A stretch of 64,000 bases of DNA from the human T2T-CHM13v2.0 reference genome, Homo sapiens: contig CP068257.2 of NCBI GenBank assembly GCA_009914755.4, positions 38,272,001 to 38,336,000 of the forward strand, read 5' to 3'. Both the position numbers and the translations under genes were made by a program. The first letter of the stretch is position 1. Every line of letters begins with the position of its first letter. Below the pieces are notes generated by a model that saw nothing but the letters and a program-made list of their open reading frames with translations, did not search any database and had not been told where the DNA came from. Positions 10,631 to 41,318 of this stretch are shown here, piece by piece.

Positions 10631-10682
10631 CGACAAGGTGCTGGGGCAACCAATGGAAAAGACAAGACATCTGGTGAAAATG
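10631..10682 (+). CDS. PCP4: PCP4 (Purkinje cell protein 4 / PEP-19) coding exon 2, 52 nt, encoding RQGAGATNGKDKTSGEN plus the first base of Asp
   Basis: The translation matches residues 4-20 of human PCP4 (MSE|RQGAGATNGKDKTSGEN|DGQKK...). Acceptor TTTTGCCTTTAG|CG, donor AATG|GTAAGAGG. The reading frame continues into the exon at 41191. Confidence 0.93.
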
Positions 10683-39613: not shown

Positions 39614-40233
39614 AGCAAGCAGGATAGAACAGGCAGGCCTTACCTCAAGTCCTCAAGGAACCCCAGCTTCCTCCACCCTCTCTGATAGAGCTGGTGCCTG
39701 AGCATTATTATGCAAAGTCCCTAAACAAGGTAGTGGATGATGAACTCAGGCTGCCTGGTGACACTCAGGAATAGAGCCCACTCCCTGCTCACTGGCTGGG
39801 GCTTTTCCTCTGCCTCAGAATGCCTCCAGTTCTCCCATCTCCAAGTTGGCTGTGCTCCTCACAGGGCTGGCCTCCTCTGCTCTAGGTGCAAGCCCAGGGT
39901 GGCAGCGAGGCTCTTGGCCCAGGTCCCAGGAGAGGTCAGTTCTGTCCCCAGTTCTGGCTTGAGCTAACTCCAAGGCCTCCTTTGTCCTTGGATCTCAATT
40001 CTGGCCACACCTGAGAGTCTTTTTAAAAGAAGTGTAGATGTCTGGCCTCCCCACAGGGACACGGATTTCTCAACATCCATCTTGCTCTTAGGAGCACCCT
40101 TCCCACTGCGGCTGTGCAAGGAGGAAGCCCTGAGTCTGGGGTGAGACCCTCATGCCTGTATTTAAAAAAAGAAAGAAAAAGAAAAACGATGCCTTTGATG
40201 AATCTGATGTTTAGCCTTCATCAGACTAGAGGC

Positions 40234-40370
40234 ATTTATTATTTTATTTTAGTTTTTTATTTCTGTAGGTTTTTGGGGAACAGGTGGTGTTTGGTTACAT
40301 GAGTAAGTTCTTCAGTGGTGATTTGTAAGATTTTGATACACCCATCACCTGAGCAGCATACACTATACAC
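40234..40370 (-). mobile_element. L1 (older L1PB/L1MA-type) extreme 3' end fragment, antisense, with A-rich tail complement at the left
   Basis: The + strand reads ATTTATTATTTTATTTTAGTTTTTTATTTCTGTAGGTTTTTGGGGAACAGGTGGTGTTTGGTTACATGAGTAAGTTCTTCAGTGGTGATTTGTAAGATTTTGATACACCCATCACCTGAGCAGCATACACTATACAC. This is the revcomp of L1 3'UTR ...GGGTGATGGGTG.ACCAAAATCT.A.AAATCACCACT.AAGAACTTA.TCATGTAACCAAA.ACCACCTGTTCCCCAAAAACC. Confidence 0.75.
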
Positions 40371-40403
40371 TCTACGGCCATACCACCCTGAACACGCCGG
40401 GTC
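40371..40403 (+). pseudogene. 5S rRNA 5'-end fragment (about 33 nt), contiguous with the L1 fragment inside one TSD-flanked insertion
   Basis: TCTACGGCCATACCACCCTGAACACGCCGGGTC versus human 5S rRNA nt 2-34 (TCTACGGCCATACCACCCTGAACGCGCCCGATC): 23/23 then 7/10 identical. The whole 40234-40403 insert is flanked by the 16-bp direct repeat TCATCAGACTAGAGGC (40218-40233 and 40404-40419). Confidence 0.7.
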
Positions 40404-41159
40404 TCATCAGACTAGAGGCTTTTGAAAGACATTTACCTTCCACGACTGAAGAATTTTATTGATTTATTTGTTTTTCCGTCTTGGCTGCACTGGCCCTGTG
40501 CTGTGGTAAGGTATACAGCACAGAGGCCCAAGCCTTCGTTCCTCACCACCCCCCACTTTGTGTCCTGTCACCGTGTGAATTGGTGAAATCCCTCCACCTC
40601 AGCAAGCCATTTGCCAAGTCTACCTCATAGGAACAAGAATGTAAGCTTTGTGAAAGTTCAGTCGAACTGTGAAGGTCAAATGGTGTCATCCCATCTTGAC
40701 GATGATAAAAATGGAAGCCCTGATTGCAATAAGCAAATCTTTCCTGAGAATGACACACAGAATTATACACGGAAACTCAGTATATGACTCTGCTGACTCA
40801 GTAATTGTGAATATCAGCTATCATTGGACCAATATCTTAGCAATATTAAATGGTACCTCTGTGAGATAGCAGGAGAAAGTAACAGCACAGCCAGTATTAA
40901 AACCATATATCAAGATGGTCACTGAGAACAGAAAATCATGTGCAGAAAATACATGAAGTGTTGAGACTGTGTCCTTGAGTTTCATTGTCCTGCTCAGGTG
41001 GTAGATTCTGAGCTCTGTCAAAACACTCCACTGGATTTTACTTTGCAGATGAGCTCTTGTCCTGGGGTGTAAGTTAAGCCCCTGTGTGTGCCCCAAGGTG
41101 GACTTCCTGGCTTCACTTATCTAGTGGGGCTGTCTGCTTTCCTATTTTCAGCTCAGTGA

Positions 41160-41318
<159 letters not shown>

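What the first reader, a model, noticed from the sequence alone, without database searches (positions are those of the whole stretch)
40218..40419. TSD-flanked 170-bp retro-insertion joining an antisense 5S-rRNA 5' fragment to an L1 3' end, 770 bp upstream of the PCP4 last-exon acceptor
The 16-mer TCATCAGACTAGAGGC occurs at 40218-40233 and again at 40404-40419. Between the two copies lie three parts:
- a T-rich tract, which is the complement of an L1 A-tail;
- 137 nt that are the reverse complement of an L1PB/L1MA 3'UTR end (...CCACCTGTTCCCCAAAAACC);
- directly abutting that, 33 nt (TCTACGGCCATACCACCCTGAACACGCCGGGTC) that match nt 2-34 of human 5S rRNA, with 23/23 identity at the start.

Read on the L1-sense strand, the order is 5'-[antisense 5S head]-[L1 3' end]-[A-tail]-3' inside one TSD. 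This looks like a single L1-mediated event that captured 5S RNA, by template switching or a twin-priming-like event, rather than two independent insertions.

Published L1 chimeras (U6-L1, 5S-L1) carry the small RNA in the same sense as L1. The opposite orientation here is unusual.
Basis: seen in the sequence. Interest (0 to 1): 0.5.

Follow-up and report, generated by a model that had tools for sequence, protein, structure and literature searches.

The report
Known antisense 5S–L1 chimeric retro-insertion
An old LINE-1 tail fragment and the first ~34 bases of 5S ribosomal RNA, in opposite orientation, were pasted into a PCP4 intron in one event; this exact locus and its whole class were already catalogued in 2026, so it is real but ordinary.

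Summary
An exact 16-bp duplication (40218-40233 and 40404-40419) brackets three parts:
- a degenerate T-rich tail complement;
- about 116 nt of an L1PB1 3' end on the minus strand (40253-40368);
- 33 nt matching human 5S rRNA nt 2-34 on the plus strand (30/33 identical, 23/23 at the start).

A consensus of 58 independent L1 copies shows that L1 homology stops at 40368-40370, so the 5S bases are not L1.

The single-event, twin-priming reading is well supported. The 5S 5' end abuts the L1 truncation point. The 5S breakpoint abuts the upstream TSD, whose first 8 nt match 5S nt 35-42 at 6/8 positions, giving microhomology in loop C.

The claim that the orientation is unusual is wrong. Law & Burns (Cell Genomics 2026, Table S2) list this very locus (hg38 chr21:39928046-39928161(-) L1PB1 with chr21:39928164-39928204(+) 5S:2-42). 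In their table 23 of 27 5S/L1 chimeras are antisense, typically with the 5S start at the junction and truncation near nt 40-50. Doucet et al. 2015 had already proposed two-RNA twin priming for inverted snRNA/L1 chimeras.

Verdict: real, already known, a neutral intronic relic, low interest.

The parts
40218..40233 (.). Left copy of the target-site duplication. It is the 3' TSD when read on the L1-sense (minus) strand. The imperfect extension runs to 40238.
   Evidence: Exact 16-mer repeat. 21-nt repeat at 19/21 identity. Table S2 places the TSD at window 40222-40238.
40234..40252 (-). Degenerate poly(A) tail of the L1 fragment, seen as an A/T-rich T-tract on the plus strand.
   Evidence: Read directly. 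It lies where the 58-copy L1 consensus has its poly-T run.
40253..40368 (-). 5'-truncated L1PB1 3'-UTR end, about 116 nt.
   Evidence: RepeatMasker annotation in Table S2 of PMC13174262, chr21:39928046-39928161(-). Independent alignment to 59 L1 copies shows 10.7% divergence.
40369..40370 (.). Junction dinucleotide AC. It is either L1 (the consensus has CC here) or untemplated or ambiguous bases. 5S G1 is absent.
   Evidence: Comparison with the L1 consensus and with 5S.
40371..40403 (+). 5S rRNA nt 2-34, sense on the plus strand and so antisense to the L1. There are three substitutions: G25A at a CpG, C30G and A32G.
   Evidence: 30/33 identity, E=2.4e-8. The L1 consensus diverges completely here. 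RepeatMasker calls 5S:2-42.
40404..40411 (+). Microhomology zone. The first 8 nt of the right TSD copy (TCATCAGA) resemble 5S nt 35-42 (TCGTCTGA) in loop C. This is the inferred annealing site of the second-strand primer.
   Evidence: 6/8 matches in fixed register, P about 0.004. The identical left copy has no 5S-like bases upstream of it, so these bases come from the target.
40404..40419 (.). Right copy of the TSD. It is the 5' TSD on the L1-sense strand. The extension to 40424 (TTTTG) holds the first-strand endonuclease site.
   Evidence: Table S2 gives the cleavage site as TT/[C/T]AAA and scores the EN motif 'Yes'.

Best explanation
This is a two-RNA twin-priming product of LINE-1 target-primed reverse transcription, fixed as a neutral relic in the last PCP4 intron.

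Inferred steps:
1. L1 endonuclease nicked the window's plus strand at ...GGCTTTT(G)/AAAG. The T-run primed first-strand cDNA on the poly(A) tail of an L1PB1 RNA.
2. The other strand was cut 16-21 bp away. Its free 3' end (5'-...GTCTGATGA-3' on the minus strand) annealed by microhomology to the exposed loop C of a 5S rRNA (nt 35-42). It primed a second reverse transcription that ran off the 5S 5' end (nt 34 down to 2).
3. The two cDNAs were joined after only about 116 nt of L1 had been copied. The joining was either by template jump or by end-joining.

The product, read on the L1-sense strand, is TSD-[antisense 5S 34->2]-[L1 3' end]-A tail-TSD.

Shown: the anatomy, the identity of each part, the single TSD, the microhomology and the catalog entry. 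Inferred: the order of biochemical steps. No present-day function is expected.
For: - An exact 16-bp TSD brackets both parts.
- The 5S identity of 40371-40403 is significant, and these bases are not L1.
- The L1 identity and minus-strand orientation are confirmed against 59 independent copies and by RepeatMasker's L1PB1 call.
- The geometry is what twin priming predicts. The RNA 5' end faces the inversion junction, and the internal 5S breakpoint abuts the upstream TSD.
- There is 6/8 microhomology (7/8 if the G:T wobble is counted) between the TSD end and 5S nt 35-42.
- A near-consensus EN site is present.
- L1 and 5S show similar divergence, 10.7% vs 9.1%, which is consistent with one age.
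- The locus is listed as a 5S/L1 chimera whose MSA was manually checked.
- At class level, 23/27 are antisense. The 5S annotation overlaps the upstream TSD in 18/23 of those, and by at least 5 nt in 10/23. Of the overlapping bases, 69/88 match 5S.
- The authors propose twin priming for antisense chimeras.
- Doucet 2015 proposed the same model for inverted snRNA/L1 chimeras, with junction complementarity and loop-located truncations.
Against: - No orthologous empty site could be examined with these tools.
- The paper's automated MSA predictor did not call this locus (found_by_msa_prediction = FALSE). Only proximity plus manual inspection did.
- The divergence comparison has little power, with only 33 nt of 5S.
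- The overlap statistic is partly circular, because RepeatMasker extends an alignment only where similarity exists.
- Twin priming cannot be formally separated from capture of a free 5S cDNA at the 5' junction.
Confidence: 0.85

Rival explanations
1. A free 5S cDNA was captured at the 5' junction. In this reading a run-off 5S cDNA made elsewhere served as a DNA template for an ORF2p template jump, or was ligated in as filler by end-joining. It was not primed from the target's second-strand end.
For: It gives the same final arrangement. The 5S 5' end lies at the L1 junction, as expected for a run-off cDNA 3' end. Microhomology-mediated joining is common at L1 5' junctions (PMC2912911).
Against: It needs an extra unprimed cDNA species. 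The 8-nt microhomology sits exactly where a target-end primer would anneal. The recurrent breakpoints in loops C and D, with TSD overlap in 18/23 loci, fit direct priming more simply.
Confidence: 0.08
2. A pre-formed chimeric transcript was retrotransposed. A source locus already had an antisense 5S head next to an L1 3' end, and it was transcribed and copied as one RNA.
For: One TSD and one A-tail are also expected for a single RNA template.
Against: None of the 59 L1-bearing contigs recovered carries the 5S head or this junction. The 27 catalogued 5S/L1 chimeras involve many L1 subfamilies and different truncation points, so they are independent events. The 5S piece starts at the RNA's own 5' end and stops in a loop at a point of microhomology with the target. 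A read-through transcript would not predict either feature.
Confidence: 0.03
3. Two independent insertions occurred: either an older 5S pseudogene fragment at the target, or a later 5S insertion next to the L1.
For: 5S pseudogene fragments do occur in the genome. The automated MSA predictor did not call the locus as contemporaneous.
Against: The 5S bases lie inside the TSD pair, and the sequence upstream of the left TSD copy is not 5S-like. The 5S piece has no TSD or A-tail of its own. The census loci were manually confirmed as contemporaneous. L1 and 5S have similar divergence.
Confidence: 0.02
4. The resemblance to 5S is due to chance, or the bases belong to L1 or to a 5S-derived SINE.
For: Rfam does not call a 5S match at these coordinates.
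Against: There is a 23/23 exact match from the 5S start, at E=2.4e-8. The L1 consensus reads AATGTGTAGTCTTTTATCC at this position. No SINE body follows, because the match ends at the TSD. RepeatMasker calls it 5S.
Confidence: 0.01

Closest known systems
Antisense 5S rRNA/LINE-1 chimeric insertions (Law & Burns, Cell Genomics 2026, PMC13174262, Table S2)
   Same: The match is complete. The 5S is antisense and 3'-truncated, with its 5' end at the junction with a 5'-truncated L1. Truncation is near nt 40-46 (loop C), a flanking TSD is present and so is an EN motif. This locus is a row in that table (chr21:39928046-39928161(-) L1PB1 / 5S:2-42).
   Different: Nothing substantive. In the human sequence the exact duplication is a 16-mer offset by 4 nt from the 17-nt TSD they call. 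The 5S-templated part is more likely nt 2-34, with nt 35-42 being target-derived microhomology.
Inverted snRNA/L1 chimeras formed by two-RNA twin priming (Doucet et al. 2015, PMC4476161; U5, U1, U2 and one U6)
   Same: The small RNA is 3'-truncated and inverted relative to a 5'-truncated L1 within one TSD. The EN consensus appears only when read in the L1 orientation. [quoted passage not shown]
   Different: The captured RNA is 5S rRNA (a Pol III ribosomal RNA) rather than a spliceosomal snRNA.
Classical twin priming / L1 5' inversion (Ostertag & Kazazian 2001, as summarised in PMC2912911)
   Same: Two target-primed reverse transcriptions start from the two ends of the staggered break. There is microhomology at the 5' junction, and the 5' segment is inverted.
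   Different: In the classical case both cDNAs come from the same L1 RNA. Here the second primer used a different RNA.
U6/L1 template-switch or RtcB-ligation chimeras (Buzdin 2002/2003; Garcia-Perez 2007; Moldovan 2019, PMC6789731)
   Same: A small Pol III RNA is fused to the 5' side of a 5'-truncated L1 inside one TSD.
   Different: U6 is full-length and in the same sense as L1, with its 3' end at the junction. Here the small RNA is antisense and truncated, with its 5' end at the junction, so a different mechanism applies.

Membership tests
Antisense 5S/LINE-1 chimeric insertion (Law & Burns 2026 census) | A 5'-truncated L1 3' end with an A-tail | tested here: met
   Alignment to 59 independent L1 copies, with the poly-T complement at 40234-40252. 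RepeatMasker calls L1PB1.
Antisense 5S/LINE-1 chimeric insertion (Law & Burns 2026 census) | A 5S rRNA-derived segment within 50 bp of the L1 5' end, antisense to the L1 | tested here: met
   5S nt 2-34 lies on the plus strand, 2 nt from the minus-strand L1. Identity is 30/33, E=2.4e-8.
Antisense 5S/LINE-1 chimeric insertion (Law & Burns 2026 census) | The 5S start lies at the L1 junction, with 3' truncation near loop C (about nt 40-50) or loop D (about nt 90) | tested here: met
   nt 2 lies at the junction. The match ends at nt 34 (templated part) or nt 42 (RepeatMasker). Ten of the 23 antisense census loci share this form.
Antisense 5S/LINE-1 chimeric insertion (Law & Burns 2026 census) | One TSD of at least 7 bp flanks both parts | tested here: met
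   Exact 16-mer, extending to a 21-nt repeat at 19/21 identity.
Antisense 5S/LINE-1 chimeric insertion (Law & Burns 2026 census) | An L1 endonuclease motif at the first-strand nick | tested here: met
   The reconstructed target on the L1-sense strand is ...TCTTT/CAAAAGCC..., i.e. TTTT/G or TTTTG/A on the nicked strand. It is near-consensus and Table S2 scores it 'Yes'.
Antisense 5S/LINE-1 chimeric insertion (Law & Burns 2026 census) | Both parts arrive together in multi-species alignments (empty site in outgroups) | not testable with these tools
   No primate genomes are available here. The paper states that census loci were manually confirmed, but its automated predictor flag is FALSE for this locus.
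Twin-priming products (Ostertag & Kazazian 2001; two-RNA variant of Doucet 2015) | The 5' segment is inverted relative to the 3' segment inside one TSD, with the RNA's 5' side facing the inversion junction | tested here: met
   Read directly.
Twin-priming products (Ostertag & Kazazian 2001; two-RNA variant of Doucet 2015) | Complementarity between the 3' end of the upstream TSD strand and the RNA at the internal priming site | tested here: met
   TCATCAGA vs 5S 35-42 TCGTCTGA gives 6/8 matches, P about 0.004. The five terminal primer bases pair with the RNA (4 Watson-Crick pairs plus 1 G:T).
Twin-priming products (Ostertag & Kazazian 2001; two-RNA variant of Doucet 2015) | Both segments derive from the same L1 RNA (classical form only) | tested here: not met
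   The inverted segment is 5S, not L1. The locus therefore belongs to the two-RNA variant, not to classical 5' inversion.
Template-switch / RNA-ligation chimeras (U6/L1 type) | The small RNA is in the same sense as L1, with its 3' end joined to the L1 5' truncation point | tested here: not met
   The orientation is opposite, and the 5S 5' end is at the junction.
Functional 5S rRNA gene or full pseudogene (Rfam RF00001) | A match to the 5S covariance model at or near gathering score | tested here: not met
   There was no 5S hit even at E<=10 on 40000-40700, and none at gathering score in the whole window. Only 33-41 nt of the 121 nt are present.

The most novel reading that the evidence does not exclude
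The recurrent 5S breakpoints in antisense 5S/L1 chimeras (about nt 40-50 and about nt 90) may be set by microhomology-guided internal priming of ORF2p on the exposed hairpin loops C and D of intact 5S RNA. That differs from the prior RNase cleavage of 5S into fragments which the 2026 paper favours. This locus (6/8 pairing at nt 35-42) and the TSD/5S overlap in 18 of 23 catalogued loci are compatible with priming inside the loop. The paper does not mention microhomology.
Probability: 0.45. Interest if true: 0.25.

Novelty: already known. Interest (0 to 1): 0.1.

Why it matters
It matters little beyond bookkeeping. The locus is one of 27 catalogued human 5S/L1 chimeras and illustrates how the L1 machinery can start a second reverse transcription on an abundant cellular RNA at the opposite end of the staggered break. 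The only new element here is that the catalogued 5S alignments usually overlap the upstream TSD. That extends to 5S the junction-complementarity argument Doucet et al. made for U5, and it bears on whether the 5S is cut before it is copied. There is no evidence that the insertion affects PCP4.

Tried and rejected
- An Rfam E-value scan of 40000-40700 and a gathering scan of the whole window found no 5S or other family. The fragment is too short for the covariance model.
- Self-BLAST of 40151-40480 against the window found no second copy of this L1 3' end, so the window could not supply a reference.
- The viral-contig scan for the L1 27-mer found nothing.
- The genome-contig scan gave one contaminant contig, and metagenome contigs gave 58. 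Together these supplied the L1 consensus. None of them carries the 5S head or the TSD 16-mer, so no second copy or orthologue of the chimera was recovered.
- A paper search for a longer 5S string found nothing. The full 5S sequence was taken from PMC6962460 instead.
- Buzdin 2003 (PMC169886) and Ostertag & Kazazian 2001 (PMC311219) are not held. What they say about orientation and microhomology is therefore cited only through later papers.
- A 5S-derived SINE (SINE3/AmnSINE1 type) was rejected. The match is 23/23 to human 5S from nt 2, ends at the TSD and has no SINE body.
- No empty-site search of the contig collections was attempted.

Full report
**Observation**

The 16-mer TCATCAGACTAGAGGC occurs exactly twice in the 64-kb window, at 40218-40233 and 40404-40419. 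None of 100 dinucleotide-preserving shuffles gave two matches. In the human sequence the repeat extends rightward to 21 nt (40218-40238 vs 40404-40424) at 19/21 identity.

The window is the PCP4 locus. tblastn places exon 2 at 10631-10681 and the last coding exon from about 41187. The acceptor AG is at 41189-41190 and the exon starts at 41191.

**Identity of the parts**

The 5S part:
- I took a documented human 5S rRNA sequence from the methods of PMC6962460.
- Window 40371-40403 equals 5S nt 2-34 at 30/33, and nt 2-24 at 23/23.
- blastn gives E=2.4e-8, and this is the only significant 5S hit in the window.
- The three differences are G25A (at a CpG), C30G and A32G.
- Rfam covariance models do not report the fragment, even at E<=10. 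The whole window has no Rfam hit at gathering score. That is expected for 33 nt of a 121-nt RNA.

The L1 part:
- The window holds no second copy of this L1 3' end, so I looked for outside references.
- The 27-mer GGGGAACAGGTGGTGTTTGGTTACATG found nothing in viral contigs.
- It found one 561-bp contaminant contig in a bacterial assembly and 58 host-contaminant metagenome contigs.
- The consensus of these copies runs poly-T, then ATTTCAATAGGTTTTTGGGGAACAGG...ACACTGTACCCAATGTGTAGTCTTTTATCCC.
- The window follows this consensus from about 40257 to 40368, with 12 differences in 112 nt (10.7%). It then departs completely: TCTACGGCCATACC in the window against AATGTGTAGTCTTT in the consensus.
- So the L1 is on the minus strand, is 5'-truncated to about 116 nt plus a degenerate A-tail (40234-40252), and the 5S-like bases are not L1.
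- Positions 40369-40370 (AC) are ambiguous. The L1 consensus has CC there, and 5S G1 is absent.

**The locus is already catalogued**

[quoted passage not shown] Its Table S2, sheet '5S', contains this row:
- L1: chr21:39928046-39928161(-), L1PB1.
- Non-L1 part: chr21:39928164-39928204(+), 5S:2-42.
- TSD: 17 nt.
- Cleavage site: TT/[C/T]AAA, EN motif 'Yes'.

The TSD sequences printed there (…AAAAGCCTCTAGTCTG) are the reverse complement of window 40408-40424 and 40222-40238. This fixes the window as hg38 chr21:39,887,794-39,951,793. It puts RepeatMasker's L1PB1 at 40253-40368 and 5S at 40371-40411.

Census loci were found by a RepeatMasker small-RNA annotation within 50 bp of the L1 5' end. Contemporaneous insertion was then confirmed by manual inspection of multi-species alignments. 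The automated predictor flag is FALSE for this locus.

**The orientation is typical, not unusual**

[quoted passage not shown] It adds that the 5S start is at the junction and that truncation falls near positions 46 and 90, in loops C and D.

Tabulating the 27 rows:
- 23 are antisense.
- 14 of those start at 5S nt <=5.
- 10 of the 14 end at nt 40-50.

This locus is therefore the modal form.

Inverted, 3'-truncated snRNA/L1 chimeras (U5, U1, U2 and one U6) were described earlier and explained by two-RNA twin priming (Doucet et al. 2015, PMC4476161). That paper also reported complementarity between the small RNA and the insertion site, and truncations in a single-stranded loop.

**Mechanism**

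Read on the L1-sense (minus) strand, the order is: TSD, then antisense 5S nt 34 down to 2, then GT, then the L1 3' end, then the A-rich tail, then TSD.

Twin priming predicts exactly this. The strand end released by second-strand cleavage primes reverse transcription on an RNA. That cDNA is continuous with the upstream TSD and runs toward the RNA's 5' end, which then faces the junction with the L1 cDNA.

Evidence on the priming step:
- The 5S similarity continues 8 nt into the right TSD copy: TCATCAGA vs 5S nt 35-42 TCGTCTGA, 6/8 matches, P about 0.004 in fixed register.
- The left TSD copy has the same 8 nt with no 5S-like sequence upstream of it, so these bases come from the target.
- The complementary strand end, ...TCTGATGA-3', can pair with 5S loop C. 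Its five terminal bases form 4 Watson-Crick pairs plus one G:T.

The reconstructed empty site reads ...GGCTTTTG/AAAG... on the nicked strand, which is a near-consensus EN site. L1 and 5S divergence (10.7% vs 9.1%) is consistent with one age, although with little statistical power.

Template switching or RNA ligation, as for U6/L1, would give the same sense with the small RNA's 3' end at the junction. Neither is seen here.

**A small addition at class level**

The 2026 paper does not mention microhomology or annealing, and it suggests targeted RNA processing to explain the 5S breakpoints. From its own coordinates I find:
- The 5S annotation overlaps the upstream TSD in 18 of 23 antisense loci, and by at least 5 nt in 10.
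- 69 of the 88 overlapping TSD bases match the reverse complement of 5S at the stated positions.

This is partly circular, because RepeatMasker extends an alignment only where similarity exists. Even so, it matches the junction complementarity reported for U5 and for L1 5' inversions. It fits internal priming in exposed loops at least as well as prior cleavage does.

**Rivals**

- Capture of a free 5S cDNA by template jump or end-joining cannot be formally excluded, but it needs an extra intermediate.
- A pre-formed chimeric source transcript is unlikely. None of the 59 L1-bearing contigs has the junction, and the 27 catalogued chimeras involve many L1 subfamilies and truncation points.
- Two independent insertions are excluded by the single TSD enclosing both parts, and by the non-5S sequence upstream of the left TSD copy.
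- Chance resemblance and L1 origin are excluded.

**What could not be done**

No primate genomes are available here, so I could not examine the orthologous empty site myself. I rely on the paper's statement of manual confirmation. Buzdin 2003 and Ostertag & Kazazian 2001 are not held.

**Verdict**

However, both the class and this exact locus are already published, and the orientation is the norm for 5S/L1 chimeras. It is a neutral intronic relic and scores low on interest.

Noticed in passing
L001 (NZ_NRRF01000273.1, 1-561): A 561-bp contig of the RefSeq 'Thiocystis violacea DSM 208' assembly is a primate L1 3' end. It aligns to the window's L1 part and continues along the 58-copy L1 consensus. 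This is most likely host or laboratory DNA contamination in a bacterial genome record.
   Followed up: partly
L002-L059: 58 metagenome contigs carry the exact L1 27-mer GGGGAACAGGTGGTGTTTGGTTACATG followed by L1 sequence. This is host DNA in metagenome assemblies, at least one of them labelled a human oral metagenome. It was useful here as an improvised L1 reference.
   Followed up: partly
window 40245-40308 (+): On the PCP4-sense strand, the antisense L1 tail forms a polypyrimidine tract ending in AG (TTTTAGTTTTTTATTTCTGTAG, AG at 40267-40268). A donor-like GTAAGT follows 34 nt later at 40303-40308. This looks like a cryptic exon, but there is no evidence that it is used.
   Followed up: no
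window 40163-40186 (+): An A-rich tract (AAAAAAAGAAAGAAAAAGAAAAA) lies about 30 nt upstream of the left TSD copy. It may be the tail of another old retroelement or simply A-rich target DNA.
   Followed up: no
window 40218-40238 and 40404-40424: The TSD called in Table S2 (17 nt, 40222-40238 / 40408-40424, with IUPAC ambiguities) is offset from the exact human 16-mer. The human sequence supports a 21-nt repeat at 19/21 identity. Its left 8 nt double as 5S microhomology, and its right 5 nt overlap the A-tail and EN site.
   Followed up: yes
Table S2 of PMC13174262 (5S sheet): In 18 of 23 antisense 5S/L1 chimeras the RepeatMasker 5S alignment overlaps the upstream TSD, by up to 13 nt. The paper's text does not discuss microhomology.
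   Followed up: partly
window 1-64000: No Rfam family reaches gathering score anywhere in the window, so no other small-RNA gene or pseudogene is detectable by that test.
   Followed up: yes
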